Shown: positions 3,607 through 51,901 of the stretch, one piece after another
Position numbering within the stretch: position 1 is the first letter of the stretch
Layout of the letters: every line of letters starts with the position of its first letter
DNA from: Nitrosopumilus sp.
Lineage (GTDB): Archaea; Thermoproteota; Nitrososphaeria; Nitrososphaerales; Nitrosopumilaceae
NCBI GenBank assembly: GCA_965207445.1
Contig: CBDBLX010000002.1
Location: 1,463,849-1,527,848, forward strand
Direction: 5' to 3'
Length of the DNA stretch: 64,000 bases
The notes under the pieces: generated by a model
Told to the model about the DNA's origin: nothing
Database searches by the model: none
Seen by the model: only the letters and a program-made list of their open reading frames with translations
Made by a program: the position numbers and the translations under genes

Positions 3607-3969
3607 TTAACAAAGATGTAACAAACAACAACAACAACAACACGCAATGTGTTTTATATGATTTTATTTAAACAATCTATAATATCGTTTAACGTCGATA
3701 ATTATACTTGATCAGATCAAATAGAAAATATGTATATAGGAATATTCTAGTACCTTTGAATAGATATAAAAATATGTACTAGAACATCAATATTAATTAG
3801 GACTGACAAAAAACGAGTTTGCATCAGATCAAAAGTACTAGAATCGATCAAGACCAGTGTCAATGTGATAGAGTTGTTGACAGATGGCTAAATTTGACCT
3901 AAATTTATATCAAAACCATAATCTCAACATTACATTAACAGTTATTTACCAACATGTGTAGACTAACTC

Positions 3970-4935: not shown

Positions 4936-7035
4936 TTATTGTATAAATTCAGATATTATATTACGAATCTCATCTACCACATTTGCATCCTCAATAGTAC
5001 TTGTATCACCTATTTGTTCACCAAGTACAAGTGAGCGCAATAGTCGTCGCATGATCTTGCCACTTCGAGTCTTGGGTAATCGAGATACCACATACACCGC
5101 ACTTGGAGTCGCAATTGCACCAATATCATCACGTATTTTTTGTATGATTTCAGATTTCAACTGTGTATTAGTAGTGTGATGTGAATCATCAGTTATCTTT
5201 GGTACTGCAAATGCCACTATACTTGCACCCTTTATTTCATCAGGTATCTCACATACAGCAGATTCAGCAACATTATTGTGAGATACTATACAACTCTCAA
5301 CTTCTGCAGTACCAATACGATGCCCTGCGATTTTCAAGACATCATCGGCGCGTCCCAAAATCCACACATAGCCATCCTCATCAATACGAGCATAATCCCC
5401 AGAGTGGTACAGTCCAGGATAACGAGTCCAATATGCAGATTTGTATCGGTCATCATCATTCCACAGTGTAAGTAGCATCCCAGGCCATGGATTTCGAATT
5501 ACCAATTGTCCTCTTGTATTTACAGGCACAGATTCTCCATTATCATCAAGTATGTCAAGATCAATTCCAGGTATTGGTAGAGTAGCTGAGCCAGGTTTTA
5601 GTAAGGTGTTTTCGATTGCAGGTAATGGAGATATCAACATTCCACCAGTCTCTGTCTGCCACCACGTATCTACGATTGGGCAACGTTCTTGGCCCACTCT
5701 CTTGTGATACCACCTCCACACTTCAGGATTTATGGGCTCACCAACTGTTCCAAGTAATCGTAATGTATCAAACATTTGAGATGATGGTTGTATGGTGTTA
5801 GGATGATCATGTGTACTAGTAGCATTATCATAATTGTCAAATCTCATCAACATACGCAACAGAGTCGGTGTAGTGTAAAATATCGTAACTTTATGATCTT
5901 GTATTATCTTCCACATTCGTGTATGGTCTGGATAGTCTGGTGCCCCCTCATACATTACAGATGTGAGCCCATGCATTAGTGGAGCATATACCACATAACT
6001 GTGCCCCGTAACCCATCCGACATCAGCAGTGCAAAAGTAGACATCATTAGGTAGTGTGTGTGGCACATCTTTACCATCATTGTTTTTAGTGTTATTATCA
6101 CCACCACTATCTGCATCAGTATTACTATCTGCATCAGTATTACTATCTACATCAGTATTACTATCTGCATCAGACATTTCATTATTATTCACACCAAAAG
6201 CCCATCCAAATGTAGCATACACATGTGTCAAATATCCACCCGTTCCGTGTAAAACACCTTTTGGCTTGCCAGTTGTCCCAGAGGTATATAATATGAATAA
6301 TGGATGAGTACTCTCAAGAGGTAGTGGCTTGCATTCAGATGGCATAGCACTCATAATATCATCCCAATACTTGTCCCGAGGTATGGTCATGGGTACGTCA
6401 CGACCAGTCCGACGAAAAACTATCACATGTTCTACATCATCAATATCAGATATAGCATCATCAACTATGGACTTTAACTCTACAATCTTACCACGTCTAT
6501 ATCCACCATCAGCAGTAATTATCACCTTTGAGCCAGAATCAGACACACGATCTTTGATTGATGTAGAACTGAATCCAGAGAATATGACAGTATGAGTAGC
6601 TCCTATTCTAGCACACCCTAGCATTGCAATTACCAATTCAGGTATCATCGGCATGTATATCGTCACACGATCACCACTCCTCACACCAAGTGAACAAAGT
6701 GCATTTGCAAAACGTCGAGTCTCATTATACATATCCCCATATGTAATCACGCGGTTTGTTCCATCTTCTGCCACCCATATTATAGCAGGTTTCTCAGAGT
6801 GTTTTGGTATATGTCTGTCCACTGCATTATAACAAGCATTTGTTTTGCCACCAACAAACCATCTAGCAAAAGGAGGATTCCAATCCAGTGTATGTTCAAA
6901 TGGCTCAAACCATTCAATTCCACGTCGTGATTGTTCTGCCCAAAATGAAACTAGATCAGATAAAGCCCATTTACGAATATAATTATTATAATTATTATTA
7001 TTACTTGATTTTGTGAGATTAATACGCTCACGCAT
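4936..7035 (-). CDS. acs: AMP-forming acetyl-CoA synthetase
   Basis: YTSGTTGKPKG, TADVGWVTGHSY, VGEPINPE, DTWWQTETGG, LPKTRSGKIMRR. Confidence 0.95.
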   Translation of the reverse strand: MRERINLTKSSNNNNYNNYIRKWALSDLVSFWAEQSRRGIEWFEPFEHTLDWNPPFARWFVGGKTNACYNAVDRHIPKHSEKPAIIWVAEDGTNRVITYGDMYNETRRFANALCSLGVRSGDRVTIYMPMIPELVIAMLGCARIGATHTVIFSGFSSTSIKDRVSDSGSKVIITADGGYRRGKIVELKSIVDDAISDIDDVEHVIVFRRTGRDVPMTIPRDKYWDDIMSAMPSECKPLPLESTHPLFILYTSGTTGKPKGVLHGTGGYLTHVYATFGWAFGVNNNEMSDADSNTDVDSNTDADSNTDADSGGDNNTKNNDGKDVPHTLPNDVYFCTADVGWVTGHSYVVYAPLMHGLTSVMYEGAPDYPDHTRMWKIIQDHKVTIFYTTPTLLRMLMRFDNYDNATSTHDHPNTIQPSSQMFDTLRLLGTVGEPINPEVWRWYHKRVGQERCPIVDTWWQTETGGMLISPLPAIENTLLKPGSATLPIPGIDLDILDDNGESVPVNTRGQLVIRNPWPGMLLTLWNDDDRYKSAYWTRYPGLYHSGDYARIDEDGYVWILGRADDVLKIAGHRIGTAEVESCIVSHNNVAESAVCEIPDEIKGASIVAFAVPKITDDSHHTTNTQLKSEIIQKIRDDIGAIATPSAVYVVSRLPKTRSGKIMRRLLRSLVLGEQIGDTSTIEDANVVDEIRNIISEFIQ

Positions 7036-7094
7036 GTAATTGGTACATATTTACATTATCTAAATGTTAAAAAAAATATAGTGTTGGCAGTAGT

Positions 7095-8492
7095 TTATTG
7101 AGATTCCATTCTAGATAACCAGTCATCATCGTTTTTTGGTGATGATGGTGATGGTGTTGTTGTTGCTGTTGCTACAGATGGTGTTTGTGATGATTGTGTT
7201 TGTGATGGTGTTTGTGGGGCCAAATTCTTTGGGGGTTCTGGAAACACGACCTCTTCATCATGTTGCTGGACATGATCAAATGTATTTGGTGAGGGTTGTG
7301 TCTGCGGCACACCTTGCAGCTGTTGTGAAACATACGGTACCTCAATATACGAGGGCGTCTGTTGTTGCAACGGCTGTTGTTGTTGTTGTTGTTGTTGCAG
7401 GTATGATTGTGTGTTTGGCACCGAGTTGGGTTGTTGTACAATAGTGTCAGTCTCTGTTGTATGCAAATCCGATACATCTTTTGATGTATTTACATTCGAT
7501 ACATTTGCATCTGCAATTGGCGCTGTGTTTGGTGCTTTTGCATCTACTGCTGGAGTAGGCACAATCACGGGCTCTTGTGGCACATTTGTATCAACAATAG
7601 TATTGCCACTACCCTCAGCACCAGTTGCCACAGTATCGTTTGTTGTGGACTGCGTTGAGATGACATCTACATCAGAGGCTTCCACTGCCTGTGTTATAGT
7701 CTCTGAATCTGTGTTTGGTATATGATTTGGTTTCTGATCCATTAAAGGATCTTTGACATCTGCCACCTGTTGTTCCATCAAATTTGGTACACCGCTAGGT
7801 GATGATATGAGAGGTGCTTCCATAGGTGCCACTATAGATGAAGTATGTTCATCTTCAGTAGCCGTAGCACTTATCATGTCATTTACTTCTTGCACCTGAG
7901 TCTCCAATCCATCGAGTCTAGTCTTTATGTTTTTGATCTCTTTGATCTCATGAGACATGTGTTCTATCAAATTACCTGTTGATAATTTTACTGTCTCAAG
8001 AGTCTCTTCTGAAATCTCGTTGCTCTTGTATCGAATCTTTGCATCAAAGAAGAGCATTTTACTAGATCGCAGTTGATCGTCGAGTTCTTCTAGTCGTGTA
8101 TCAAGAGTCATCTTGAGGGATACTGCTAGACTTTGTAATGAGGCCAGTTTGCTACGGTATTGGTCCTGAACAATCTCCGCATCAACATGCATCTCATCAG
8201 TATCGTCTTCTGCCATAATCTCAACTAATGCTCTCAGACGACTTAGAGTGTATTTCTTCTCTCGAATTAATCTCTGCGAGTCGAGTCTCCATTGTGGAAT
8301 GTAGATGACAATGTCTTCCTGAGTCACCAGATGCTCATCAAGTATCATCTGTAACCCCTGGGTGCCGCAGTCAACACCAACTGATTTGATGGTACCATCA
8401 ATGTCAGTTATTGTTCCTACAACCTTACCCATGTAAGAGCCATAGATATTCTTGACAGATTTGCCGATGATCTCAGCATTATCATGTGTCAT
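7095..8492 (-). CDS. cdvA: CdvA-like cell division protein with long low-complexity C-terminal linker
   Basis: N-terminal PRC-barrel-like region (IIGKSVKNIYGSYMGKVVG..SVGVD), coiled coil, Q/P/T-rich tail and terminal WLSRME motif, as in thaumarchaeal CdvA. Confidence 0.8.
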   Translation of the reverse strand: MTHDNAEIIGKSVKNIYGSYMGKVVGTITDIDGTIKSVGVDCGTQGLQMILDEHLVTQEDIVIYIPQWRLDSQRLIREKKYTLSRLRALVEIMAEDDTDEMHVDAEIVQDQYRSKLASLQSLAVSLKMTLDTRLEELDDQLRSSKMLFFDAKIRYKSNEISEETLETVKLSTGNLIEHMSHEIKEIKNIKTRLDGLETQVQEVNDMISATATEDEHTSSIVAPMEAPLISSPSGVPNLMEQQVADVKDPLMDQKPNHIPNTDSETITQAVEASDVDVISTQSTTNDTVATGAEGSGNTIVDTNVPQEPVIVPTPAVDAKAPNTAPIADANVSNVNTSKDVSDLHTTETDTIVQQPNSVPNTQSYLQQQQQQQQPLQQQTPSYIEVPYVSQQLQGVPQTQPSPNTFDHVQQHDEEVVFPEPPKNLAPQTPSQTQSSQTPSVATATTTPSPSSPKNDDDWLSRMESQ

Positions 8493-8847
8493 GTCACATA
8501 ATCATAGGTTTTGTATAACAAGTTGCGTGTAAAAAATGTTAAACCATTTTGTCAAATTACGTGTACCAAATATAGACAACAAGCACGCAATTGTGGCAAA
8601 TAGATGCAAAATTGGTGCAAAAATACTCCAAAGGTAGATTTTACACTCAAATCAATTTAGTACGTATAGTAAAATAACTTGCTCACTGTATATTTTAGGC
8701 ACATTTGATCATATTGTCACGTCTTTTTTGTTTGTTTGTTTGTTTTTTTTTTTGATGTATATAGTTCAGCATACCACCTAGAATGTATGCTGCCTATGGT
8801 ATGTACTGCCTAGGGCAATGCTGTATGTAGTTTTTTTAAAAAAGATG

Positions 8848-8910
8848 TAATCTCTTTGGACGCAATAATGAAATTAACGTCTGGCGCAAACACAGTTGAT
8901 GAACGATTAG
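8848..8910 (+). mobile_element. Highly degenerate GTAACC-MITE remnant
   Basis: taacgtctggcgca core (~8875-8888) followed by tgaacgatta, resembling the right TIR. Confidence 0.4.
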
Positions 8911-8922
8911 AGAATGCATTGG

Positions 8923-9519
8923 TTAGTTGTGTGTTGCATATATTGTGCGCGGCTTTACATCTCCGGTTTGATATATCTCTGTTTTGAGTTGAATGTTACC
9001 GAATTCAGGATGTACCATATCAATTACAATAGGATGTACTACCCAACCATACTTTGGTACAGAATTAAATTCCACATGAGTGACAAAAAAAGGTCCCGGC
9101 ATTACCTCCCTGTATGATTGAGATAGTCCGAGTACCTCTAAATTCACAGGAATCTCTGCGCCTGTTTTATCATTAAAAGTTACAACAACAAATTTTTCTA
9201 AAGGGTGATACACTGCATCAACTGACAATGCTTTTTTTGCACCTTCAATTGAATCCTGATCATACCCAGTATTTGATGCATGCAATACAAAAGCAGTAAT
9301 AATTATCGCTGTAATTAAAAGTACAATGATAAATGCGCGTAATCTATTATAATTATATGAATTATTAATATTATTTTTACTATTATGGTTGTGATTGTGA
9401 TTGTGATTGTGATCATCATTAATACTAGCATTATTTTTATGATCGTCTAAGTGATCATTAGTATGATCACCATTATAATTATTATTCTTCAACTTTATGA
9501 CCTTGTTTTTATTTATCAT
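8923..9519 (-). CDS. Membrane-anchored hypothetical protein with Asn/His-rich N-terminus
   Basis: Single TM segment (AFIIVLLITAIIITAFVL) followed by a beta-rich domain; lies downstream of the M1 peptidase on the same strand. Confidence 0.75.
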   Translation of the reverse strand: MINKNKVIKLKNNNYNGDHTNDHLDDHKNNASINDDHNHNHNHNHNSKNNINNSYNYNRLRAFIIVLLITAIIITAFVLHASNTGYDQDSIEGAKKALSVDAVYHPLEKFVVVTFNDKTGAEIPVNLEVLGLSQSYREVMPGPFFVTHVEFNSVPKYGWVVHPIVIDMVHPEFGNIQLKTEIYQTGDVKPRTIYATHN

Positions 9520-9540
9520 TCATCATATTGTAATTACACA

Positions 9541-12318
9541 TTACTTGGAATTATCTTTTGCAAACTCAATTTTGATCCTCTTTTTCATATTATCAGATAT
9601 TTGAATTCTCTCAATTGTTTGCAAAAGTGTGCGTTCGGTTCCAGGTGTAGGGTTTGATTTGAAAAATCTTTGTATTTGAGGTATATCAGATACACAACAA
9701 GTATTTGCAAGTGATGATATAATTCTACCAAGTAGTGGATTGCCGTGCCCAACTTTGCGCGATATCTTTTTCCAGTTCTTTTGAACCCATGGCCACAATA
9801 TATCAACAGCATTTGGGTTTTCTGATACTCTAGATACAAGCAAAAAGAAATTTTGTGAGCGCACATTAGATGATAGTGCATATTGTAATGTACGCAAAAG
9901 AATATCAGTATATTGAAATTTGCACATTGCAGATACAAATCGCATCTTTTTCTCAGTAGAGTCTGCACACTCATGCATCTCAACTAGTTGTGTATACATG
10001 ACACGTGCATCAGATTTTGATTTACAATTCCATGCAGCAACTGCACACACATACTCTATCACATCAGGGGACAACACACGAGGATGCACATTATTACCAT
10101 TACGATTATTCTCAGAGAGTATTTTATAAAACTCGTAAGATTTGGCAACCACATCAGCATCACCTAGTAATCCCAATGACCATATTATAGGGCCACGTAG
10201 TAGAGACATTGCATGAGGTTCATTAGATTTAGAGTTCCATCCGGTGACTGTCTGGTGTACACGTTTGTAAAAGTTCATTGAGTGTTTCTTTATTATATGA
10301 TTAGCAGTGGGTAATCTAAATGAGAGCATGTAAAGACGAGACATATTCATGTTAATATCATGTAAAATTGCATAATCATCAATAGTATCATACATATTTA
10401 GTATCTGCAGATACTCATTTACAGTAGAGTATCCACGCACACACATTGCAAATAGATCATTTTGCAGAGCCCATAAATCAGGCATCTCAATGCTAGGTTT
10501 TTGAAGTGTTTTTGAGCTGTGTGATGATTGTGCACTAGTAGAAGCATCAAGTAATGTGAGTTTTGCAAACGATATCACACTAGACATCAAACTAGCATCA
10601 TAGTGAACTCGATAAAAACAGGTACGGCCAGGATTTGCAAGTATGACAGGTAATTTTTTGTTTGTGTTTTGTTTAGTAGATGTAATATCAATTGATGTGG
10701 TTCTAGTTGAAAATAGTATAGTGGTGATAATCTTTTTTTTGCCCAGCACTTTGAGTGAGAGTGGGATTATCCATTTTGTAGTCGTTTTTTTATCTGTGTG
10801 TAGTAATACATACTGTTCTTGTCGCGCAGATAATGCATCTTTGTGTATTTTTAGATGAACTACAGGAAAACCAGGTGTATCTAGCCACGACTTTATCATA
10901 TGAGATACAGGTTTACCAGACTTTTCTTCTATGCACTGCCACAGATCATTGCCCTTTGCATTTGCATACTTGAATTTTTTGAGATATGCAACCAATCCCC
11001 GTTTAAATGAACGCTCACCTACATAGTATTCTAGCATACGTAGTACACATCCACCCTTTTCATATGATATTGGATCAAATATCTCACGTATTTGAGATGG
11101 TGAATCAACAGGCACATCGATAGGATGTGTTGATTGTAATGAATCAAGTGCCATTGCAGTGTTCATGGCATCTGTAAGAAATTGTTTCCACAGATCCCAT
11201 TCAGGGTGCATTTTATCCAAGAGTTTTGTTGCCATAAATGTAGCAAAGCTCTCATTGAGCCACAAATCATTCCACCATTTCATGGTAACCAAATTGCCAA
11301 ACCATTGGTGTGCCAATTCATGGGATATTACCTCAGCAATTAGTTGTTTTGTGCGTGCAGATGATGTGTTCTTATCATATAACAGTAGGTTTTCTCTAAA
11401 TGTTATGGCACCCCAGTTCTCCATAGCACCTGCAGCAAAGTCAGGTATTGCGATCAAGTCTAGTTTCGGTAGCGGGTAGGGTATCTCAAAGTACGACTCA
11501 TAAAGCTCTAAGAGTTTTTGTCCGTATTTGAGTGCAAATTTTGCAAGGTCTTTTTTGATTGCACTAGTAGTTATAACGCGCAGTTTTATATCACGCTCCC
11601 TTAGACTACAAGTGGTCTGAGTAAAAGAAAACTCACCGACTCCCATGTATACCAAATATGTAGACATTAGTGGAGTGGCGTCAAAGTAAAATGTTCTATT
11701 ATTCTTTGATCTTTTGATTCTAGATGTGGGCATGTTTGATATTGCAGTGTGTTGTGCATCATATACTACAAGTTGTATTGCAAAAGTAGCCTTTGCATCA
11801 GGTATATCCCAACATGGAAATGCACGTCGTGCATCTGCTGCTTCAAATTGTGTTGTGGCAAGATGTTTTGTAATACCATTAGAATCAGTATAACTACTGC
11901 GATAAAATCCCAATAGTCTGTCATTTAGTATACCATCAAAATCCAGCCTGATTGTAGCATCTGTATTTATCTCTAGTCCAGATGGCAAACGAATTAAAAG
12001 ACGCTCTTGTGTATTATGTGTAGATATACGAGATAAAGGAATTTTGATCAGACGACTAGTAAGAGGATTGATATAATTAAATATGTTTTTGTCATATATG
12101 GGATCATCTTGCAATAATGTCAAGTCTGGTTTGTCATCAGTATTGGTCAAGAATACATAGCATGCAGTTATGGTTAATTCAGAGCAGTCTAGTTCTATTA
12201 TATTGGTAGGGTGATTGCATTTTACATGTATGTGTGCAACGCCACGAAATGTAGCTTGTTTGAGATTAGGCTCAAATCGTAGTGTATAGTGAGCAGGCCT
12301 CAGGTCATCGTATCCCAT
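9541..12318 (-). CDS. M1-family zinc aminopeptidase (aminopeptidase N / tricorn-interacting-factor type)
   Basis: TQFEAADARRAFPCWD, GAMENWG, HELAH-x18-E zinc motif, YEKGG. Confidence 0.95.
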   Translation of the reverse strand: MGYDDLRPAHYTLRFEPNLKQATFRGVAHIHVKCNHPTNIIELDCSELTITACYVFLTNTDDKPDLTLLQDDPIYDKNIFNYINPLTSRLIKIPLSRISTHNTQERLLIRLPSGLEINTDATIRLDFDGILNDRLLGFYRSSYTDSNGITKHLATTQFEAADARRAFPCWDIPDAKATFAIQLVVYDAQHTAISNMPTSRIKRSKNNRTFYFDATPLMSTYLVYMGVGEFSFTQTTCSLRERDIKLRVITTSAIKKDLAKFALKYGQKLLELYESYFEIPYPLPKLDLIAIPDFAAGAMENWGAITFRENLLLYDKNTSSARTKQLIAEVISHELAHQWFGNLVTMKWWNDLWLNESFATFMATKLLDKMHPEWDLWKQFLTDAMNTAMALDSLQSTHPIDVPVDSPSQIREIFDPISYEKGGCVLRMLEYYVGERSFKRGLVAYLKKFKYANAKGNDLWQCIEEKSGKPVSHMIKSWLDTPGFPVVHLKIHKDALSARQEQYVLLHTDKKTTTKWIIPLSLKVLGKKKIITTILFSTRTTSIDITSTKQNTNKKLPVILANPGRTCFYRVHYDASLMSSVISFAKLTLLDASTSAQSSHSSKTLQKPSIEMPDLWALQNDLFAMCVRGYSTVNEYLQILNMYDTIDDYAILHDINMNMSRLYMLSFRLPTANHIIKKHSMNFYKRVHQTVTGWNSKSNEPHAMSLLRGPIIWSLGLLGDADVVAKSYEFYKILSENNRNGNNVHPRVLSPDVIEYVCAVAAWNCKSKSDARVMYTQLVEMHECADSTEKKMRFVSAMCKFQYTDILLRTLQYALSSNVRSQNFFLLVSRVSENPNAVDILWPWVQKNWKKISRKVGHGNPLLGRIISSLANTCCVSDIPQIQRFFKSNPTPGTERTLLQTIERIQISDNMKKRIKIEFAKDNSK

Positions 12319-12526
12319 GATCTGTTTTGAGTGAGTATTGTCTTAAGTATATTTCGTACTTTTAACAAATGTCATTATTATTATGGTGGTGGCGGGTATT
12401 GAGTTCCAAAAAGTGTAGCAAATTTTAGCCATATTTTTTACAAGATGGGTAATAGAAATAATCAGTAGTCATAAAATTTGGATGAAAAGACACTACTTGT
12501 TCATCTATTTGTTAATCTACTTGTCC

Positions 12527-12607
12527 GTAACCGTTCAACCTTTTCCCAAATTTAGGCACAAATTCACCACCTAACGTCTGGCGCAGGTACGGGGGTTGAA
12601 CGGTTAC
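12527..12607 (+). mobile_element. Intact 81-bp MITE with 14-bp TIRs GTAACCGTTCAACC and 9-bp target duplication
   Basis: Perfect TIRs at 12527-12540 and 12594-12607. tacttgtcc flanks both sides (12518-12526, 12608-12616). Confidence 0.92.
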
Positions 12608-13204
12608 TACTTGTCCATCTACGTAGTAATTAAAACACTGATCCAAAAGTTTTTGGTCTTTTATATCCATTTATTGTTCTTGATCTATAGATATTTGTTG
12701 ATTGTGTTTTCAATTTTTTATTTAAAAAAAATATTATACATATCCATCTATACATGTCCATCTATACATATTCATCTATACATATCCATCCACCCTATGA
12801 CACTACAACACCAAACTTTGGTATCAACCCCGATTAACTAGTTAAATTAAAACTTGACTTTATAATCATATAGAACTGATAAACTCTGACTGAAGATGTG
12901 TAGGCAGTCTACCAAACGGCAAGGTCGTGCTGAAACGAGCAGATGACGAAAAATCCGAATCCATAATAAAGGCGAGTCGTGATGATATCAAAACCAGTGA
13001 CTGTGGGTTAATTATAATGACGGCAAAAAATGTACCGGGATGCTTAAGATCCTTGGCCCATTTTTTATTAATTATTTAGTTTACAAAGTATTTATGACAT
13101 ATGGTACATTATGATCTTAATTTCTATCTAGATTTAGATGATGTTGATTTATGTCTCGTGTTGTGTAGGTAAATAGATAAAATGTACAATGCTGGTAACT
13201 AATT

Positions 13205-28800: not shown

Positions 28801-31800
28801 TCAGATAACATAGGTACTGCTCTCCAAATGGTGACGTCACAGACACCACCCCGCCTACTATCACCCTGACTGGGTCGGCTTCTGTCACCGTGACGCTGGG
28901 CGGCACATATGAAGAAGAGGGGGCAGTCTGCTCTGATATTGTGGATGCTGACAAGCCAGCCACTGTAGGGGGCGACACAGTTAACACTGACTCGACTGGT
29001 CAATATACACCATACAGTATACCTGCACAGATACAGCAGGTAATGAGGCCACACCTGTAGATCGTACCGTGACCGTCCATGATCCGACAGCTCCGTCTGT
29101 TGTTATAGACAACGTAACAATGGAAGCAACAGGTGCCACAACTAGTGTCAATATTGGCTATCCAGAGATAACTGATGCATCAGGTGGCCCATATATCGTA
29201 ACACATAACGCAACTGGAAATGTACAGACCACATCAGGTGCTAGTAATGTGACCGTATCACTTGGTGTTGGTAGGATTATAGTGCAGTGGAGCGTCACGG
29301 ATCCCTCAGATAACATAGGTACTGCTCTCCAAATGGTGGACGTCACAGACACCACCCCGCCTACTATCACCCTGACTGGGTCGGCTTCTGTCACCGTGAC
29401 GCTGGGCGACACATATGAAGAAGAGGGGGCAGTCTGCTCTGATATTGTGGATGCTGACAAGCCAGCCACTGTAGGGGGCGACACAGTTAACACTGACTCG
29501 ACGGGTCAATACACATACAGTATACCTGCACAGATACAGCAGGTAATGAGGCCACACCTGTAGATCGTACCGTGACCGTCCATGATCCGACAGCTCCGTC
29601 TGTTGTTATAGACAACGTAACAATGGAAGCAACAGGTGCCACAACTAGTGTCAATATTGGCTATCCAGAGATAACTGATGCATCAGGTGGCCCATATATC
29701 GTAACACACAACGCAACTGGAAATGTACAGACCACATCAGGTGCTAGTAATGTGACCGTATCACTTGGTGTTGGTAGGATTATAGTGCAGTGGAGCGTCA
29801 CGGATCCCTCAGATAACATAGGTACTGCTCTCCAAATGGTGGACGTCACAGACACCACCCCGCCTACTATCACCCTGACTGGGTCGGCTTCTGTCACCGT
29901 GACGCTGGGCGGCACATATGAAGAAGAGGGAGCAGTCTGCTCTGATATTGTGGATGCTGACAAGTCAGCCACTGTAGGGGGCGACACAGTTAACACTGAC
30001 TCGACGGGTCAATACACTATACAGTATACCTGCACAGATACAGCAGGTAATGAGGCCACACCTGTAGATCGTACCGTGACCGTCCATGATCCGACAGCTC
30101 CGTCTATTTCCATCAACGACGTAACAATGGAAGCAACAGGTGCCACAACTAGTGTCAACATTGGCTATCCAGAGATAACTGATGCATCAGGTGGCCCATA
30201 TATCGTAACACACAACGCAACTGGAAATGTACAGACCACACCAGATACTAGTAATGTGACCGTATCACTTGGTGTGGGTATGATTATAGTGCAGTGGAGC
30301 GTCACGGATCCCTCAGATAACATAGGTACTGCGCTCCAAATGGTGGACGTCACAGACACCACCCCGCCTACTATCACCCTGACTGGGTCGGCTTCTGTCA
30401 CCGTGACGCTGGGCGGCACATATGAGGAACAAGGAGCCGTCTGCTCTGATATTGTGGATGCTGACAAGTCAGCCACTGTAGGGGGCGACACAGTTAACAC
30501 TGACTCGACGGGTCAATACACCATACAGTACACCTGCACAGATACAGCAGGTAATGAGGCCACACCTGTAGATCGTACCGTGACCGTCCATGATCCGACA
30601 GCTCCGTCTATTTCCATCAACGACGTAACAATGGAAGCAACAGGTGCCACAACTAGTGTCAACATTGGCTATCCAGAGATAACTGATGCATCAGGTGGCC
30701 CATATATCGTAACACACAACGCAACTGGAAATGTACAGACCACACCAGATACTAGTAATGTGACCGTATCACTTGGTGTGGGTATGATTATAGTGCAGTG
30801 GAACGTCACGGATCCCTCAGATAACATAGGTACTGCTCTCCAAATGGTGGACGTCACAGACACCACCCCGCCATCTGTTGTTATAGACAACATAACAATG
30901 GAAGCAACAGGTGCCACAACTAGTGTCAACATTGGCTATCCAGAGATAACTGATGCATCAGGTGGCCCATATATCGTAACACACAACGCAACTGGAAATG
31001 TACAGACCACACCAGATACTAGTAATGTGACCGTATCACTTGGTGTGGGTATGATTATAGTGCAGTGGAGCGTCACGGATCCCTCAGATAACATAGGTAC
31101 TGCGCTCCAAATGGTGGACGTCACAGACACCACCCCGCCTACTATCACCCTGACTGGGTCGGCTTCTGTCACCGTGACGCTGGGCGGCACATATGAAGAA
31201 GAGGGGGCAGTCTGCTCTGATATTGTGGATGCTGACAAGTCAGCCACTGTAGGGGGCGACACAGTTAACACTGACTCGACGGGTCAATACACTATACAGT
31301 ATACCTGCACAGATACAGCAGGTAACGAGGCCACACCTGTAGATCGTACCGTGACCGTCCATGATCCGACAGCTCCGTCTATTTCCATCAACGACGTAAC
31401 AATGGAAGCAACAGGTGCCACAACTAGTGTCAACATTGGCTATCCAGAGATAACTGATGCATCAGGTGGCCCATATATCGTAACACACAACGCAACTGGA
31501 AATGTACAGACCACACCAGATACTAGTAATGTGACCGTATCACTTGGTGTGGGTATGATTATAGTGCAGTGGAGCGTCACGGATCCCTCAGATAACATAG
31601 GTACTGCGCTCCAAATGGTGGACGTCACAGACACCACCCCGCCTACTATCACCCTGACTGGGTCGGCTTCTGTCACCGTGACGCTGGGCGGCACATATGA
31701 GGAACAAGGAGCCGTCTGCTCTGATATTGTGGATGCTGACAAGTCAGCCACTGTAGGGGGCGACACAGTTAACACTGACTCGACGGGTCAATACACCATA

Positions 31801-34800
31801 CAGTACACCTGCACAGATACAGCAGGTAATGAGGCCACACCTGTAGATCGTACCGTGACCGTCCATGATCCGACAGCTCCGTCTATTTCCATCAACGACG
31901 TAACAATGGAAGCAACAGGTGCCACAACTAGTGTCAACATTGGCTATCCAGAGATAACTGATGCATCAGGTGGCCCATATATCGTAACACACAACGCAAC
32001 TGGAAATGTACAGACCACACCAGATACTAGTAATGTGACCGTATCACTTGGTGTGGGTATGATTATAGTGCAGTGGAACGTCACGGATCCCTCAGATAAC
32101 ATAGGTACTGCTCTCCAAATGGTGGACGTCACAGACACCACCCCGCCATCTGTTGTTATAGACAACATAACAATGGAAGCAACAGGTGCCACAACTAGTG
32201 TCAACATTGGCTATCCAGAGATAACTGATGCATCAGGTGGCCCATATATCGTAACACACAACGCAACTGGAAATGTACAGACCACACCAGATACTAGTAA
32301 TGTGACCGTATCACTTGGTGTGGGTATGATTATAGTGCAGTGGAGCGTCACGGATCCCTCAGATAACATAGGTACTGCGCTCCAAATGGTGGACGTCACA
32401 GACACCACCCCGCCTACTATCACCCTGACTGGGTCGGCTTCTGTCACCGTGACGCTGGGCGGCACATATGAAGAAGAGGGGGCAGTCTGCTCTGATATTG
32501 TGGATGCTGACAAGTCAGCCACTGTAGGGGGCGACACAGTTAACACTGACTCGACGGGTCAATACACTATACAGTATACCTGCACAGATACAGCAGGTAA
32601 CGAGGCCACACCTGTAAGCCGCACCGTGACCGTCCATATGGCGCCCGATACCACCTCACCGTCTATTTCCATCAACGACGTAACAATGGAAGCAACAGGT
32701 GCCACAACTAGTGTCAATATTGGTTATCCAGAGATAACTGATGCATCAGGTGGCCCATATACCGTAACACACAACGCAACTGGAAATGTACAGACCACAC
32801 CAGATACTAGTAATGTGACCGTATCACTTGGTGTGGGTATGATTATAGTGCAGTGGAGCGTCACGGATCCCTCAGATAACATAGGTACTGCGCTCCAAAT
32901 GGTGGACGTCACAGACACCACCCCGCCTACTATCACCCTGACTGGGTCGGCTTCTGTCACCGTGACGCTGGGCGGCACATATGAAGAAGAGGGGGCAGTC
33001 TGCTCTGATATTGTGGATGCTGACAAGTCAGCCACTGTAGGGGGCGACACAGTTAACACTGACTCGACGGGTCAATACACTATACAGTATACCTGCACAG
33101 ATACAGCAGGTAACGAGGCCACACCTGTAAGCCGCACCGTGACCGTCCATATGGCGCCCGATACCACCTCACCGTCTATTTCCATCAACGACGTAACAAT
33201 GGAAGCAACAGGTGCCACAACTAGTGTCAATATTGGTTATCCAGAGATAACTGATGCATCAGGTGGCCCATATACCGTAACACACAACGCAACTGGAAAT
33301 GTACAGACCACACCAGATACTAGTAATGTGACCGTATCACTTGGTGTGGGTATGATTATAGTGCAGTGGAACGTCACGGATCCCTCAAATAACATAGGTA
33401 CTGCTCTCCAAATGGTGGACGTCACAGACACCACCCCGCCTACTATCACCCTGACTGGGTCGGCTTCTGTCACAATAACCATAGGAAACTCATATGTGGA
33501 TGCAGGGGCCGTCTGTACAGACTTGGTGGACGGTGATATTGTTCCAGTTCAACTAGGTACGGTAAACGCATTTGCCATAGGTCAGTACACCATACAGTAC
33601 ACATGCACAGACGCAACAGGTAACGAGGCCACACCAGTAAACCGTACCGTGACTGTCAATATGGCGTCCGATACCACCTCACCGTCTATTTCCATTGACG
33701 ACGTAACAATGGAAGCAACAGGTGCCACAACTAGTGTCAATATTGGTTATCCAGAGATAACTGATGCATCAGGTGGCCCATATACCGTAACATATAACGC
33801 AACTGGAAATGTACAGACCACATCAGATGCTAGTAATGTGACCGTATCACTTGGTGTGGGTATGATTATAGTGCAGTGGAGCGTTATGGATCCCTCAAAT
33901 AACATAGGTACTGCGCTCCAAATGGTGGACGTCACAGACACCACCCCGCCTACTATCACCCTGACTGGGTCGGCTTCTGTCACCGTGACGTTTGGTGGCA
34001 CATATGAGGAACAGGGAGCCGTCTGTACAGACTTGGTGGACGGTGATATTGTTCCAGTTCAACTAGGTACGGTAAACGCATTTGACATAGGTCAGTACAC
34101 CATACAGTACACCTGTACAGACGCAGCAGGTAATGAGGCCACACCTGTAAGCCGCACCGTGACTGTCAATATGGCGTCCGATACCACCTCACCGTCTATT
34201 TCCATCAACGACGTAACAATGGAAGCAACAGGTGCCACAACTAGTGTCAATATTGGCTATCCAGAGATAACTGATGCATCAGGTGGCCCATATACCATAA
34301 CACACAACGCAACTGGAAATGTACAGACCACACCAGATACTAGTAATGTGACCGTATCACTTGGTGTTGGTAGGATTATAGTGCAGTGGAACGTCACGGA
34401 TCCCTCAAATAACATAGGTACTGCGCTCCAAATGGTGGACGTCACAGACACCACCCCGCCTACTATCACCCTGATTGGCTCGGCTTCTGTCACCGTGACG
34501 TTGGGCGACACATATGAAGAAGAGGGGGCAGTCTGCTCTGATATTGTGGATGCTGACAAGCCAGCCACTGTAGGGGGCGACACAGTTAACACTGACTCGA
34601 CTGGTCAATACACCATACAGTATACCTGCACAGATACAGCAGGTAATGAGGCCACACCTGTAAGCCGCACCGTGACCGTCCATATGGCGTCCGATACCAC
34701 CTCACCGTCTATTTCCATCAACGACGTAACAATGGAAGCAACAGGTGCCACAACTAGTGTCAATATTGGCTATCCAGAGATAACTGATGCATCAGGTGGC

Positions 34801-36261
34801 CCATATACCGTAACACATAACGCAACTGGAAATGTACAGACCACATCAGGTGCTAGTAATGTGACCGTATCACTTGGTGTTGGTAGTATTATAGTGCAGT
34901 GGAGCGTTATGGATCCCTCAAATAACATAGGTACTGCGCTCCAAATGGTGGACGTCACAGACACCACCCCGCCTACTATCACAATGATTGGCTCGGCTTC
35001 TGTCACCGTGACGTTTGGTGGCACATATGAGGAACAAGGAGCCATCTGTACAGACTTGGTGGACGGTGATATTGTTCCAGTTCAACTAGGTACGGTAAAC
35101 GCATTTGCCATAGGTCAGTACACCATACAGTATACCTGCACAGATACAGCAGGTAATGAGGCCACACCTGTAAGCCGCACCGTGACCGTCCATATGGCGT
35201 CCGATACCACCTCACCGTCTATTTCCATCAACGACGTAACAATGGAAGCAACAGGTGCCACAACTAGTGTCAATATTGGCTATCCAGAGATAACTGATGC
35301 ATCAGGTGGCCCATATACCGTAACACATAACGCAACTGGAAATGTACAGACCACATCAGGTGCTAGTAATGTGACCGTATCACTTGGTGTTGGTAGTATT
35401 ATAGTGCAGTGGATCGTTATGGATCCCTCAAATAACATAGGTACTGCGCTCCAAATGGTGGACGTCACAGACACCACCCCGCCTACTATCACCCTGACTG
35501 GTTCGGCCTCTGTCACAATAACCATAGGAAACTCATATGAAGAACAGGGAGCCGTCTGTACAGACTTGGTGGACGGTGATATTGTTCCAGTTCAACTAGG
35601 TACGGTAAACGCATTTGCCATAGGTCAGTACACCATACAGTACACCTGCACAGACACAGCAGGTAACGAGGCCACACCAGTAAACCGTACCGTGACTGTC
35701 CATATGGCGCCCGACACCACCTCACCGTCTATTTCCATTGACGACGTAACAATGGAAGCAACAGGTGCAACGACTAGGGCCAATATTGGCTATCCAGAGA
35801 TAACTGATGTATCAGGTGGCCCATATACCATAACACATAACGCTACTGGAAATGTACAGACCACATCAGATGCTAGTAATGTGACCGTATCACTTGGTGT
35901 TGGTAAGATGATCGTGCAGTGGATCGTTATGGATCCCTCAAATAACATAGGTACTGCGCTCCAAATGGTGGACGTCACAGACACCACCCCGCCTACTATC
36001 ACAATGATTGGCTCGGCTTCTGTCACAATAACCATAGGAAACTCATATGAAGAACAGGGAGCCGTCTGTACAGACTTGGTGGACGGTAATATTGTTCCAG
36101 TTCAACTAGGTACGGTAAACACATTTGCCATAGGTCAGTACACCATGAAGTACACATGCACAGACACAGCAGGTAATGAGGCCACACCTGTCGGCCGCAC
36201 CATGACTGTCCATATGGCGCCCGACACCACCTCACCGTCTAATTATTCACAATGCAGATAG
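13818..36261 (+). CDS. Giant secreted adhesin-like protein (~7,400 aa if ~10 frameshifts are corrected): FG-GAP x12, FN3 x4, NHL x5, ~39 HYR-like plus ~28 DUF5011-like Ig modules
   Basis: ORFs 13818-19577, 19498-20331, 20304-21026, 21073-21411, 21758-25336, 25318-28869, 29069-29563 and 29572-36261 are collinear pieces of one repeat array, broken mostly by 1-4 bp indels relative to sister repeats. There is an N-terminal hydrophobic signal segment. Confidence 0.85.
14160..16510 (+). repeat. 12 FG-GAP / integrin-alpha beta-propeller repeats; the second set is near-identical with a 204-bp period
   Basis: Repeated FG.SVASIGDINGDGTPDIAVGA...GAV.ILLMN motif with Ca-binding DxNGDG loops. Confidence 0.9.
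17938..18620 (+). repeat. NHL repeats (141-bp / 47-aa period, ~5 copies)
   Basis: FG..GSGDGEF..P.GIAINGTGHVYV.D...RVQIFD consensus. Confidence 0.9.
19180..36240 (+). repeat. 17-kb tandem array of Ig-like modules A (267 bp) and B (~237 bp), arranged as AB (504 bp) and AAB (771 bp) units
   Basis: Counted by eye: ~39 A (VTMEATGATTSVNIGYPEITD..WSVTDPSDN) and ~28 B (TITLTGSASVTVTLG..AVCSD..YTCTD). Confidence 0.92.
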
Positions 36262-36698
36262 CATCTCAGGATTTCAGTCGTAATTGAAATCATGATTTAT
36301 ACTCCTGCCGTGGTTACGGCTGTGTAATCTATAAAAACCATATGTGATATACATGGTACAACAAAACTGGAAATTAGGTGGTAAGAATCATGATGGTAAC
36401 TGTTAACTCCGTGCCTAGATTTTTGCACTATTTTTTGATCCTATCTTGAGTTTGTGCCTAAAAATGTCTATGATTTCAAAATTATGTTAGCTGTTAACCA
36501 TATGTGATAAGCGAAGCGCGGTAAAGTCGGAAATTAGATAGTATTAGTTGTGATTGGGCATAAACTCATCAAATTTTTAGCCATATGGCAACGACCCTAC
36601 CGCCACATTGACATTACATGTAGGGGACTAAACAAGACTATGTATTATGAGCGTTGTTGGGTTTTTGTTTTTTTGTATAAAGTTTCGTGATCTATATA

Positions 36699-36830
36699 AT
36701 CATTCAAAAATAACGCCTAGTCAAATGCAGCGCATGTACAATACTCTATACGAAAACAAAATGTGACCAAATATAAGTATGTGATTTTATTATTATGTCC
36801 AAAGAGCTTGATTCACACAAAAAATACGCG
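36699..36830. repeat. Diverged ~130-bp dispersed repeat, copy 1
   Basis: Aligns with 39328-39458 (tcattcaaaaa..cctagtcaaatg.agcgcatgt..ccaaagag.ttg.ttcacacaa). Confidence 0.8.
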
Positions 36831-36990
36831 CTTTTCATATCAGTTGTAACCGTGCACCTATGTTAATCCCATGAGGCGTTGACAAGGCAACTATTTTGTC
36901 GTTACACTTTCATTTCATGCCTACGGATACGCAGAGTCGTTGATATCTTACGCTAGGAGTGTGTAAGATGCCAAGATCTAGGACTGCCAG

Positions 36991-38179
36991 TTATTGTTTC
37001 TGGCTTGTCTTTGCGATCTTGTCCAGCTTGCGTCGATACAGATCCTCGTTACGTGACTTGTACGGTTCCTACGTGATCAGGATGTGCCACATTATCGTGA
37101 CCGTCTTGTGTGACACGGTTATTATGCCAAGTGGATGTTTGCCTGCATGACGTCACTTGACTGACTCGTAGACAAGCTTCATCTTCGAGTCGTGCATCAC
37201 AGATATCTGCGCAGCATCGCGTATTGCCCAGTTGACTAGGTCGCAGGTGTTCTGCTTTTTGATGCGGCTCTTGTGCGATACGTCGCCTGATTCGCTTATC
37301 CTTGGGCAGAGACCCGTAATTGAGACCATTTTTTTGGATTCTTGAATCGCGCTACACCATCTATCTCAACTTGCAGCCATCAACAGTACGATAAATGCAC
37401 CAACATCGGGCATACTCATCAAAAGTATTGCATCCTTGTTCGGGTATGCTTTTTTTGTAAAATACCTGTCAGTATCTGCCAAGGACTATAAGATGCGGCA
37501 TATGTCTGACGTGCTTTTGTAGCACAAACGTCTCATGTGCAGTACCGAGCTTGATCCATTTTAACTGCTCAATTCCCTTGGCGCGAGTACATCTTTGTTG
37601 CATCGATGGTTAGTTCATACCCATCAAGAAGAGCATGAATGCGGTTTATCGCCTCTGTCCTTTTCTGGTCGCCTGAGATGGTTACCCACATATTACACAT
37701 GGCAGGCATGGATGCGGTTTATCTCCTCTGTTCTTTTCGGGGTCAGTCTGACATAATGTCGTATATGTTCTGATACTGCGTATGTATTCTTCTGGAACGT
37801 GGGTCTTGTGCATCATGCCAGCCAGGAGAAAGGTTGCCAGTTTGTACGCATCTTCCTTGTCGGTCTTTTTGGCGCTCTTTGTGATGTGCTAGTCTGTATG
37901 GATTTGTAAGAATAATTCGGATTCCCGTGTTATTGAATGCGTTGTGTGTGGAACGCCACATGTTAACAGTTGATTCGTAGACTGCTGCTGCAGCAGTTAA
38001 CATTTTTTGTACCGTACTTGCGTATCATGCCCTCTGCGATTTGTTTTGCATCATGTATTGTATTTGTATACTGTCCTTTTTTGAGGATGTTGCCATTATG
38101 TCCCAGTACACAATAGTCACACTTTTTTTTTGCTGATGTTGATTCCCATGTATGTGGTCGCTGTCACATATTTGTCCAT
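36991..38179 (-). pseudogene. IS110-family (DEDD recombinase) transposase, multiply frameshifted
   Basis: N-terminal YMGINISKKK..YCVL and AVYEST RuvC-like motifs; C-terminal GLCPRISESG serine motif and IMWHIL...EPY. Internal stops and frameshifts. Confidence 0.85.
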
Positions 38180-38199
38180 TTTTTTATCATATCCTTTTG

Positions 38200-38484
38200 G
38201 ACGTTTGATGTTGACAGAACGAAAGCTGCAATCACCCATCAGGGCGCAAAGCCCAGTCATATAGCAGTTCTGATTCCCCCGTGTTATCAGAGTTGGTAAC
38301 AGCAGCAGTAGTAGTAGTAGTAGTAGGTGGAAGGCGCAAAGCCCAGTCATATAGCAGTTCTGATTCGCCCATTTAACCCCAAGAGTGTACGAACTGATTA
38401 GAGTCCGTGTTCCATGAACGGCGAAGGATCGCTCCATCACCCTAGCTACGCCAGAGGGAGGAGAAATGGTGTGGTTATCATGTA
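38200..38484 (-). ncRNA. Candidate IS110 bridge/seek RNA in the 5' non-coding end
   Basis: GC-richer ~290-nt segment upstream of the transposase. It contains a stem / internal loop / hairpin (cagaac-tgc..gggc-tttgc-gccc..gca..gttctg, 38215-38272) and a second stem ttcgcc/ggcgaa (38364-38425). Confidence 0.55.
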
Positions 38485-38560
38485 TGCAACCCCTATGCCT
38501 GCTCCAGATGTTAGGCAACGAATCTGTGCCTAAATTTGAAAAAAAAAGTCAAAAGGTTAC
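38485..38560 (-). mobile_element. Degenerate GTAACC-MITE, remainder after IS110 insertion
   Basis: caacccctatgcctgctccagatgttaggc..tgtgcctaaattt...aaggttac aligns with the reverse complement of 12527-12607. Confidence 0.75.
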
Positions 38561-38609
38561 GCTATCATACACACAATACTTTAAAACGTCATACATATTA
38601 CAACATACA

Positions 38610-39035
38610 ATGAGTAAACAAAAATCAGTACCACGAAGCATAAAGATTCTTGTTGCAAAACTAGGTCTTGATGGACACGATAGAGGTGCACTTGTCTTGT
38701 GTAGAGCATTTAGAGATGCAGGGATGGAAGTCATATACTCTGGACTCTTTGCAACGCCACAAAGAATAGCACAGATTGCAGAAGATGAGGATGTGGATGC
38801 AGTTGCCATGAGTTTACTCAACGGAGCACATGGGACATTATTTCCAAGAGTTGTAAAAGAGATAAAGAAAAAAGGCATTAATGATGTACTAGTTGTAGGA
38901 GGGGGAGTAATCCCAGAGGCAGATCATGCAGATTTGCTAAAAGCAGGCATCAATCATGTGTTTGGTCCAGGTACCCCACTTCCAACCATCATAAGTCACA
39001 TAAATACAGGTGTGGGAAATCTTCGAAAGTTGTGA
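38610..39035 (+). CDS. Methylmalonyl-CoA mutase small (cobalamin-binding) subunit
   Basis: AKLGLDGHDRGA (DxHxxG), GMEVIYSGL, VGGGVIP. Start moved to the in-frame ATG at 38610. Confidence 0.92.
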   Translation: MSKQKSVPRSIKILVAKLGLDGHDRGALVLCRAFRDAGMEVIYSGLFATPQRIAQIAEDEDVDAVAMSLLNGAHGTLFPRVVKEIKKKGINDVLVVGGGVIPEADHADLLKAGINHVFGPGTPLPTIISHINTGVGNLRKL

Positions 39036-51559: not shown

Positions 51560-51772
51560 AAAAAGGAGAGTCGGAGCAAGGGCACTGGTGACGGAATATG
51601 AGAGATGCACTCAAACAAAGTAACGAGATAATGGAACTAATCAATCTCATCGAAGAGGCAACACCTGCCAACGATCCTATTCTTTATTCTGGCTCTTGAT
51701 GCATGTCCATTTGTAATAGTTAGGTTTGCCACACCCCAGTATTCAATTACAGACACGACACTAATTTACAAT

Positions 51773-51851
51773 GTAACTGTTCAATCCTCGCACCTACACC
51801 AGATTAGACGATGAATCTATGCCTAAATTTGAAAAGGGGTCGAACGGTTAC
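51773..51851 (-). mobile_element. Degenerate full-length GTAACC-MITE
   Basis: gtaactgttcaatcc..gcctaaattt..ggggtcgaacggttac; flanks atttacaat/tattacgat match at 6 of 9 positions. Confidence 0.85.
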
Positions 51852-51901
51852 TATTACGATCTCAAAAACATAAATAAATACGATACATTCTACTCATATA
51901 C

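What the first reader, a model, noticed from the sequence alone, without database searches (positions are those of the whole stretch)
36846..38560. IS110 element inserted exactly inside a MITE terminal inverted repeat
Seen: removing 36857-38488 rejoins gtaaccgtgca|acccctatgcctgctccag...ggttac into a full copy of the 81-bp MITE, with tgca at both junctions. Known: IS110/IS1111 recombinases are RNA-guided and often target repeats (IS621 targets REP elements, IS4321 targets Tn21 TIRs). Inference: this archaeal IS110 is programmed against an abundant MITE TIR, which would act as a safe-harbour target. The transposase copy here is dead.
Basis: partly seen in the sequence, partly recalled or inferred. 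Interest (0 to 1): 0.8.

Follow-up and report, generated by a model that had tools for sequence, protein, structure and literature searches.

The report
Dead RNA-guided IS inside a MITE end
A decayed IS110/IS1111-type insertion sequence sits precisely inside the terminal inverted repeat of an abundant IS66-derived miniature transposon in an ammonia-oxidising archaeon, and its own guide RNA is written to recognise that repeat: a clear archaeal example of an already known strategy.

Summary
Taking out 36857-38488 rejoins an 83-bp copy of a real MITE. That MITE has 90 complete copies in this genome, a 16-bp TIR (GTAACCGTTCAACCCC) and 8-bp target duplications. Its TIR also ends 2.1-kb IS66-family elements.

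The insert is a 1632-bp IS110-family element on the minus strand. Its core dinucleotide is TG (CA on the + strand). The recombinase gene is dead, with at least 11 in-frame stops and frame changes.

Four more right-end remnants and two more left-end remnants of this lineage lie at the same TIR position elsewhere in the genome. The left end encodes a two-loop bridge RNA. In the best-kept copy, its target-loop segments spell 13 contiguous bases of the TIR (GGGGT-TG-AACGGT). In intact relatives from related archaea, the same two segments covary with their own flanks: 56/65 and 45/66 matches, and 0 of 20000 permutations did as well.

The ends and the guide order are IS1111-type (7-bp and 3-bp terminal extensions, subterminal repeat). 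The RNA, however, lies upstream of the recombinase gene, which is a minority arrangement already on record.

Targeting of transposon TIRs (IS4321/IS5075) and of MITEs (IS1111 in QMITE2) is published. This is therefore a new archaeal member of a known kind, and it is extinct in this genome.

The parts
36846..36856 (+). Outer 11 nt of the MITE left TIR (gtaaccgtgca). Its last two bases, CA (36855-36856), are one copy of the core.
36857..38488 (-). IS110-family (IS1111-type) insertion sequence of 1632 bp, counted with one core copy. The recombinase reads on the minus strand, outward from the MITE.
36857..36993 (-). Right non-coding end. It terminates in GGGATTAACATAGG (36857-36870): a subterminal repeat (36860-36869) followed by a 3-nt extension.
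36994..38179 (-). Recombinase pseudogene. It is 41% identical to the intact 371-aa protein of the G253 relative when read through 11 stops, with frame changes. Transposase_20 (PF02371) matches at 37168-37425.
38180..38488 (-). Left non-coding end encoding the bridge RNA. It starts with core TG (38488-38487), a 5-nt extension, then the subterminal repeat ATGATAACC (38481-38473).
38328..38441 (-). Target-binding-loop half of the bridge RNA (decayed). The 5' guide is GCCGUUCA (38422-38415) and the 3' guide is GGGGUUAAA (38380-38372).
   Evidence: covariance model, 14.9 bits, E 0.061
38220..38307 (-). Donor-binding-loop half of the bridge RNA. Its 3' side, GAUGGGUGA (38240-38232), matches right end + core with one mismatch.
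   Evidence: covariance model, 49 bits, E 4.9e-10
38243..38370 (.). 90-bp tandem duplication that splits the bridge RNA. The 38-nt repeats lie at 38243-38280 and 38333-38370, with a (CAG)n(TAG)n microsatellite at 38300-38326.
38489..38560 (+). Rest of the MITE: the inner 5 nt of the left TIR (acccc), the body, and the degenerate right TIR.

Best explanation
An IS110-family element of IS1111 type was guided by a bridge RNA encoded in its own left end. It recombined as a circle into the TIR of an IS66-derived MITE.

The target loop of the RNA carries two segments. The 5' segment is complementary to the top strand of core + right target (TG-AACGGT). The 3' segment has the sequence of left target + core (GGGGT-TG) plus two bases of the element's own left end. 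Together they read 13 of the 16 TIR bases.

The donor loop reads the joined right end/left end of the circle. Exchange at the TG core places the element between base 11 and base 12 of the TIR, always pointing out of the MITE. This splits, and probably disables, that transposon end.

The window copy later decayed. It acquired stops and frameshifts in the recombinase, one substitution in each target guide, and a 90-bp duplication through the RNA.

Shown here: the position of the element, its ends, the shared flanks of other remnants, the RNA scaffold, and guide-flank covariation in relatives. Inferred from the IS621/IS1111 literature: the circle intermediate, RNA expression and the chemistry of exchange.
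For: (1) Flanks. Five right-end junctions lie at the TIR: the window, C2:159646, C2:1249413, C2:61101 and C2:589310. There are three left-end junctions: the window, C2:1629909 and C2:1629836. The outer flanks are otherwise unrelated.

(2) Guides. The left-end copy at C2:1629836 has ..ACCGTTCA and GGGGTTGAA at the two loop positions. These equal rc(TG-AACGGT) and GGGGT-TG-AA. The window copy has one change in each.

(3) Same positions, other words, in homologues. Group A in this genome, K in G253 and ten other related elements each match their own flank. The 3' guide matches the left flank at 56/65 nt, against a non-cognate mean of 1.25/5. The 5' guide matches the right flank at 45/66, against 1.64/6. 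In both tests 0 of 20000 permutations reached the observed sum.

(4) Scaffold. RNAalifold on 12 intact left ends gives two internal loops between stems, with compensatory changes in both inner hairpins. A covariance model built from them hits the window at 38220-38307 (49 bits) and 38328-38441 (14.9 bits).

(5) Protein. PF02371 matches in the window element. The closest intact relative carries PF01548 + PF02371.

(6) Target abundance. The 13-mer occurs 112 times exactly, and 220 times at <=1 mismatch against 1 for the reversed control.

(7) Published mechanism. This was read in passages of PMC11208160, PMC13626964 and PMC11187229.
Against: No intact copy of this lineage was found in the genome, in 40 relatives searched by DNA, or in the genome/metagenome word scans. 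Activity and RNA expression are therefore untested.

PF01548 itself does not score in the window copy.

The window's own guides each carry a mismatch. The target-loop half scores only 14.9 bits, and E-values from the shortened calibration are rough.

In the covariation test two elements fit poorly on the right side (L044 0/6, L037 2/6). L046 and L048 were dropped because no right end lay within the locus.

The elements compared are related, so the permutation counts overstate independence.

The left-end junction at C2:1629836 has only a degenerate MITE-like flank.
Confidence: 0.85

Rival explanations
1. The repeated junctions do not come from independent targeted insertions. One ancestral IS-in-MITE composite was instead copied around the genome, either by segmental duplication or by the IS66 transposase acting on the MITE ends.
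For: All extra copies are short end-fragments, not whole elements. The outer 11 nt of the TIR survive next to each right end, so some mobilisation of a composite cannot be excluded. IS66-family transposase genes with this TIR are present.
Against: Sequences outside the TIR differ at every junction. The fragments are 80-87% alike, no better than separate old insertions would be. The split TIR leaves only 11 of 16 nt at the outer end. The guide words in the left end independently predict this exact site.
Confidence: 0.07
2. The recombinase recognises the TIR by protein-DNA or DNA-structure contacts, and the RNA matches are incidental.
For: A 2026 preprint listed reports, in its abstract, an additional structure-dependent layer of target recognition for an IS110 element. 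Only the listing and abstract were seen. TIR pairs of an 81-bp MITE can form a hairpin.
Against: Guide words change with flanks across 13 and 11 related elements while the scaffold stays constant. The match covers 13 contiguous bases.
Confidence: 0.05
3. A single chance insertion landed in a MITE, with no specificity.
For: Only one near-complete copy exists.
Against: Eight junctions lie at the same base of the TIR.
Confidence: 0.01

Closest known systems
[quoted passage not shown]
   Same: An IS1111-type element inserts at one fixed position and orientation inside the TIR of another transposon family.
   Different: Those are bacterial elements with 38-bp Tn3-family TIRs and the non-coding RNA region downstream of the gene. 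Here the host is archaeal, the target is a 16-bp IS66-family TIR that is mostly present as an 81-bp MITE, and the RNA lies upstream.
IS1111 in the QMITE2 elements of its bacterial host (PMC5896051; abstract and passages read)
   Same: An IS1111-family element uses an abundant MITE as its insertion site; 20 of 21 copies lie in the MITE.
   Different: There the target is a REP-like palindrome inside the MITE, not the TIR itself. The IS copies are intact, and the host is bacterial.
IS621 and its bridge RNA (PMC11208160, PMC13626964; passages read)
   Same: The RNA is encoded in the left end and has two internal loops, target loop first and donor loop second. [quoted passage not shown] Extra bases match the product junction, like the handshake guides. 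The target is repetitive DNA.
   Different: [quoted passage not shown] The core is TG, not CT. A 9-bp subterminal repeat is present. The RNA is about 115-130 nt.
ISMtsp17 and a few other IS1111 relatives with an upstream non-coding region (PMC11187229; passage read)
   Same: IS1111-type features combined with the long non-coding region upstream of the recombinase gene.
   Different: Whether they are close relatives of this clade was not tested, because no ISfinder sequences were available here.

Membership tests
IS110 family in the wide sense (DEDD recombinase) | C-terminal Transposase_20 domain (PF02371) | tested here: met
   36.9 bits (cut-off 21.3) at window 37168-37425, with one TGA inside.
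IS110 family in the wide sense (DEDD recombinase) | [quoted passage not shown] | tested here: inconclusive
   no hit in the window element at E<=0.001; the region aligns to residues 1-19 and 16-370 of the intact G253 protein, which has PF01548 at 4.3e-26, at 41% identity through 11 stops.
IS110 family in the wide sense (DEDD recombinase) | Sequence-specific insertion with only a short core repeated at both junctions and no terminal inverted repeats | tested here: met
   TG core, with the same site at 8 junctions.
IS110 family in the wide sense (DEDD recombinase) | Non-coding end encoding an RNA with a target loop and a donor loop that match the flanks and the joined ends | tested here: met
IS1111 group | Subterminal inverted repeats (usually 11-13 bp) | tested here: inconclusive
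   ATG(A/T)TAACC is present at both ends, but it is only about 9 bp and imperfect (7/9 in the window copy).
IS1111 group | Terminal extensions of 7 bp (left) and 3 bp (right) beyond the subterminal repeats | tested here: met
   TGCATAC precedes the left repeat and AGG follows the right repeat, counting the core with the left end as PMC11187229 does.
IS1111 group | [quoted passage not shown] | tested here: met
   the rule was read in PMC11187229.
IS1111 group | Long non-coding region downstream of the recombinase gene | tested here: not met
   the RNA lies upstream. The downstream end is about 140 nt. The paper records a few such exceptions.
IS110 group proper (IS621-like) | [quoted passage not shown] | tested here: not met
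   Searches give the rule; searches show the order is swapped here.
MITE derived from an IS66-family element | Short, non-coding, many copies, terminal inverted repeats, target-site duplication, and an autonomous element with the same ends | tested here: met
   81 bp, 90 complete copies, 16-bp TIR, 8-bp duplications; 2.1-kb elements with the same or a near-identical TIR, one with a 549-aa ORF matching PF03050 (DDE_Tnp_IS66) at 1.9e-29.

The most novel reading that the evidence does not exclude
The Nitrosopumilaceae elements found here form a distinct architectural class of bridge recombinases. They combine IS1111-type ends and guide order with a compact, upstream-encoded two-loop RNA of about 115-130 nt. 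They are naturally reprogrammed many times within one archaeal family, and intact copies (group A here, K in G253) may still be active. One lineage of this class specialised as a parasite of IS66-family transposon ends. Each insertion cuts a TIR, so it would have limited the spread of the very MITE it lived in.
Probability: 0.3. Interest if true: 0.55.

Novelty: new member of a known kind. Interest (0 to 1): 0.4.

Why it matters
The locus shows, from sequence alone and with internal controls, that RNA-guided target choice by IS110/IS1111 elements operates in ammonia-oxidising archaea, and that it has been reprogrammed onto the end of another transposon.

It also supplies a set of small archaeal bridge-RNA/recombinase pairs with readable guide-to-flank rules. 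Such pairs could be tested as programmable recombinases.

For genome annotation, it explains a 1.6-kb 'ORF-less' stretch and several short orphan fragments next to MITE ends.

Tried and rejected
- Rfam scan of 36500-38900 at E<=1 gave only a chance miRNA match outside the element.
- DNA search of 40 relatives with the whole element matched only the microsatellite.
- Scan of genome contigs for the 19-nt right-junction word gave 0 hits.
- The same scan of metagenome contigs gave 2 contigs. Both are the end of a high-GC bacterial IS110 element, which I judged a chance match.
- Scan of genome contigs for the 16-nt TIR gave mostly single chance hits. Multiple hits occurred only in records titled Nitrosopumilaceae.
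- Sequencing runs: four runs of one sample and one study hold the stretch as contigs, and no RNA holder is listed.
- Laid contigs bridge both junctions (for example 36700-36924 and 38377-38900). A variant with 47 differences over 36933-38291 also carries the element.
- No contig joins 36856 to 38489. Contigs drop rare variants, so this says nothing about excision.
- One joint, 36825->38362, has only 21 nt on one side and coincides with a loose end that reads like the paralogous left-end fragment at C2:1629704. I treated it as cross-mapping.
- Earlier notes of this scan returned nothing.
- Minimum-energy fold of the whole 299-nt left end was not better than shuffles (z -0.54), because of the internal duplication.
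- Group B IS110 elements (about 410 aa) in this genome and the G152 elements do not use this TIR.
- The idea that the swapped guide order is new was dropped after reading that it is the IS1111 rule.

Full report
**What is in the sequence**

The window is G000:C2:1463849-1527848. At 36846 the + strand reads gtaaccgtgca. A 1632-bp stretch follows (36857-38488), beginning CCTATGTTAATCCC and ending CATGTATGCA. After it comes acccctatgcctgctccag...ggttac, up to 38560. No ORF longer than 133 codons lies in the 1632 bp.

**The MITE is real**

A script joined 36846-36856 to 38489-38560 (83 bp) and ran it by BLAST against the genome.
- There were 49 hits at E<=1e-3.
- 22 of them start at query base 1-3 and run to 59-62, so they cross the joint.
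- With flanks printed (73 hits at E<=1e-2), the family shows a perfect 16-nt TIR (GTAACCGTTCAACCCC) and 8-bp direct repeats of flanking DNA at many copies.

A count of the TIR at <=2 mismatches gives 284 sites, 90 complete elements of 72-85 bp (58 of exactly 81 bp) and 104 unpaired TIRs. Some TIR pairs lie 2.1 kb apart.
- C2:1010206-1012334 has a near-identical TIR, a 9-bp flanking repeat and a 549-aa ORF that matches DDE_Tnp_IS66 (PF03050, 1.9e-29).
- C2:1189820-1191918 has the exact TIR and a broken ORF.

The MITE is therefore a derivative of an IS66-family element.

The window copy is an old member: 63/83 identical to the majority sequence, left TIR 15/16, right TIR degenerate.

The TIR is almost confined to this genome among those sampled.
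- There are 211 sites at <=1 mismatch here.
- Only 8 of 301 genomes of the class have any match.
- One other genome of the same genus has a single site.
- A different genus has 33, 7 and 2 sites in three genomes.

Records that hold several copies are titled Nitrosopumilaceae. One of them coincides with G152, which genome search labels 'same family'. The host is thus an archaeon of that family.

**The insert is an IS110-family element on the minus strand**
- Transposase_20 (PF02371) scores 36.9 bits at window 37168-37425, with a stop inside.
- DEDD_Tnp_IS110 does not score.
- Of the transposases collected from 301 related genomes (52 have a match at E<=1e-20), the closest is a 371-aa protein of G253, here called K.
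- K aligns over residues 16-370 at 41% identity through 11 in-frame stops, with further pieces in other frames.
- K and the 364-aa 'group A' protein of this genome carry both Pfam domains.

The recombinase gene of the window copy is dead.

**Ends, core and other copies**

BLAST of the 1632 bp against the genome finds no second full copy. It does find fragments that stop exactly at base 1 or base 1632. In element orientation the left end is TG|CATACATGATAACC and the right end is GGGATTAACATAGG|TG.

Right-end junctions:

| Locus | Sequence after the right end |
|---|---|
| window | TGCACGGTTAC |
| C2:159646 | TGAACGGTTAC |
| C2:61101 | TGAACGGTTAC |
| C2:589310 | TGAACGGTTAC |
| C2:1249413 | CAAACGGTTAC |

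Left-end junctions:

| Locus | Sequence before the left end |
|---|---|
| window | ...CATAGGGGT (MITE interior) |
| C2:1629909 | ...GAGAAGGGGT (MITE interior) |
| C2:1629836 | degenerate ...GGAATTGGT |

DNA beyond the TIR differs at every site. The uninterrupted TIR reads GGGGT-TG-AACGGTTAC in this orientation and holds a single TG. The element therefore carries a 2-nt core that appears at both junctions, as in other IS110-family elements. The recombinase always reads out of the MITE.

The window TIR has TGCA where the consensus has TGAA, and CA are also the first two bases of the element's left end. PMC13626964 (passage) states that the two bases 3' of the core are mismatched after strand exchange in IS621. 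A donor-derived base is therefore possible, but with one case a plain mutation is as likely.

**The guide RNA**

The left ends of the window copy, of group A and of K align over a constant scaffold with variable words at fixed places.

RNAalifold on twelve intact left ends gives two internal loops. The twelve are group A, K and ten elements from other genomes of the family.
- The first loop lies between an outer stem (GAyCGACCCC / GGGGCAAUCC) and an inner hairpin.
- The second lies between GAGCUGC / GCAGCUU and another hairpin.
- Both inner hairpins show compensatory changes (GC, UA, AU and GU at the same pair).

A covariance model built from this alignment gave these hits (E-values from this model are rough):
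- window 38220-38307(-) at 49 bits (E 4.9e-10) and 38328-38441(-) at 14.9 bits (E 0.061);
- the three group A copies at 111-112 bits;
- an orphan left end at C2:1978381 at 100.7 bits;
- a decayed one at C2:1088818 at 51 bits.

The two window hits are the two halves of one RNA. It is split by a 90-bp tandem duplication that contains a microsatellite.

**Guides match flanks**

In the first loop, the word on the 3' side equals left flank + core + the first two bases of the element. The word on the 5' side is the reverse complement of core + right flank.
- K: CGACCTGAA against ..GGCGACC-TG-A.., and TCTGTACTCA against TG-AGTACA.. at both K copies.
- G002: CGTTGGTGAA against GGTTGG-TG-AA, and TGATTACGCA against TG-CGTAAT.

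Covariation tests:
- Over 13 elements, the five bases next to the core match the cognate left flank at 56 of 65 positions. The non-cognate mean is 1.25 of 5. The window copy itself was left out as decayed.
- Right ends were located without reference to the guides, by the unique word TTAACATAG(G/A)+core.
- Over 11 elements, six bases match the cognate right flank at 45 of 66 positions. The non-cognate mean is 1.64 of 6.
- L046 and L048 were dropped because no right end lay in the locus. L044 scores 0/6 and group A 2/6, the latter apparently shifted by one base.
- No permutation out of 20000 reached either sum. The elements are kin, so these figures overstate independence.

For the W lineage, the best-kept left end (C2:1629836) has ..ACCGTTCA and GGGGTTGAA. 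Together these are GGGGT-TG-AACGGT, 13 contiguous bases of the TIR. The window copy has GCCGTTCA and GGGGTTAAA, one change each. That 13-mer occurs 112 times exactly in the genome, and 220 times at <=1 mismatch against 1 for the reversed control.

In the second loop, the 3' side equals right end + core: GATAGGTGA in K, GATAGGAGT in group A with core AG, and GATGGGTGA in the window. The 5' side covaries with bases 3-7 of the left end: UGUGU with ACACA, UGUAU with ATACA.

**Which kind of IS110 element**

[quoted passage not shown] Here the order is the reverse.

PMC11187229 (passages) states four things about IS1111-type RNAs and elements:
- the top-strand complement comes first;
- IS1111 elements have subterminal repeats with 7-bp and 3-bp terminal extensions;
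- the non-coding region is usually downstream;
- there are a few exceptions with it upstream, such as ISMtsp17.

The present clade has the IS1111 order and the 7/3 extensions (TGCATAC... and ...AGG). It has a short (about 9 bp) imperfect subterminal repeat and an upstream RNA. It is best filed as IS1111-type with the minority upstream arrangement. No tree against ISfinder references could be made.

**What is already known**

IS110/IS1111 elements that target repeats are published.
- REP for IS621.
- TIRs of Tn21-family transposons for IS4321/IS5075 (title seen in the reference list).
- A MITE for IS1111, where 20 of 21 copies lie in QMITE2 (PMC5896051).

My searches for IS110 + MITE + archaea and for IS1111 + TIR + IS66 listed no paper on an archaeal element aimed at an IS66 or MITE TIR. 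I read only listings and the passages cited, and opened no supplements.

**State of the lineage**

All eight junction remnants are decayed or truncated. Contigs from four runs of one sample bridge both junctions. A variant about 3.5% different also carries the element, so the insertion is shared by related strains. No empty site was seen, which says nothing about excision because contigs drop rare variants.

Three intact group A copies with a different target persist in the same genome.

**Verdict**

The observation and the interpretation hold. The locus is a well-documented but extinct archaeal member of a known class, with a modest architectural twist that is itself on record.

Noticed in passing
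window 29572-36261 (+): A 2229-aa ORF built of tandem units of about 190 aa (..TTPPTITLTGSASVTVTLGGTYEE..) lies directly upstream of the MITE. A similar repetitive protein lies next to the K elements in G253 (L067 10027-12411).
   Followed up: no
L067 (G253:C1:678000-690500) 2522-5391 and 7030-9899: The closest intact relative (K) carries another 1385-bp IS inside its right end, with TIR TAGTTAGTTGCGCAAC and flanking repeat CCCCCAGC. The composite occurs twice in inverted orientation around an IS66-like ORF. Both K copies have similar right flanks for about 25 nt, so K may also target a repeat.
   Followed up: partly
G000 C2:1978352-1978720: An orphan left end has a well-preserved bridge RNA (100.7 bits), but its recombinase gene is cut after about 70 codons. 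Its 3' guide GCAACAGAA matches its own left flank TACAAC-AG-AA.
   Followed up: partly
G000 C2:1275126-1276528, 2063194-2064596, 1165858-: There are three intact 'group A' IS110 copies (364-aa protein, core AG) whose guides predict a target near TGCAT-AG-TAATTCA. That word has 5 sites at <=1 mismatch and 50 at <=2 in the genome. Whether it belongs to another repeat family was not resolved.
   Followed up: partly
window 38300-38326: The (CAG)n(TAG)n microsatellite inside the duplicated part of the left end is the only part of the element that matches other genomes of the order by DNA.
   Followed up: no
L056 (G152:C1:2071522-2075574): In another genus of the family, a small element with TIR-like ends (GGTAACTGTTCACGTC...) sits between the bridge RNA and the recombinase gene of an IS110 copy. 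That genome also holds 33 copies of the MITE TIR, but its IS110 guides do not match it.
   Followed up: no
window 152-442, 12500-12632, 51746-51878: Further copies or fragments of the same MITE lie in the window (genome coordinates C2:1463832-1464290, 1476348-1476480, 1515594-1515726). The first group looks like nested or broken copies.
   Followed up: no
L003 168-1301 (G000:C2:1748703-1749836): A 377-aa ORF with an integrase-like DDE region (..LTDHGSQFYA..) lies immediately upstream of a group B IS110 copy. It was not examined.
   Followed up: no
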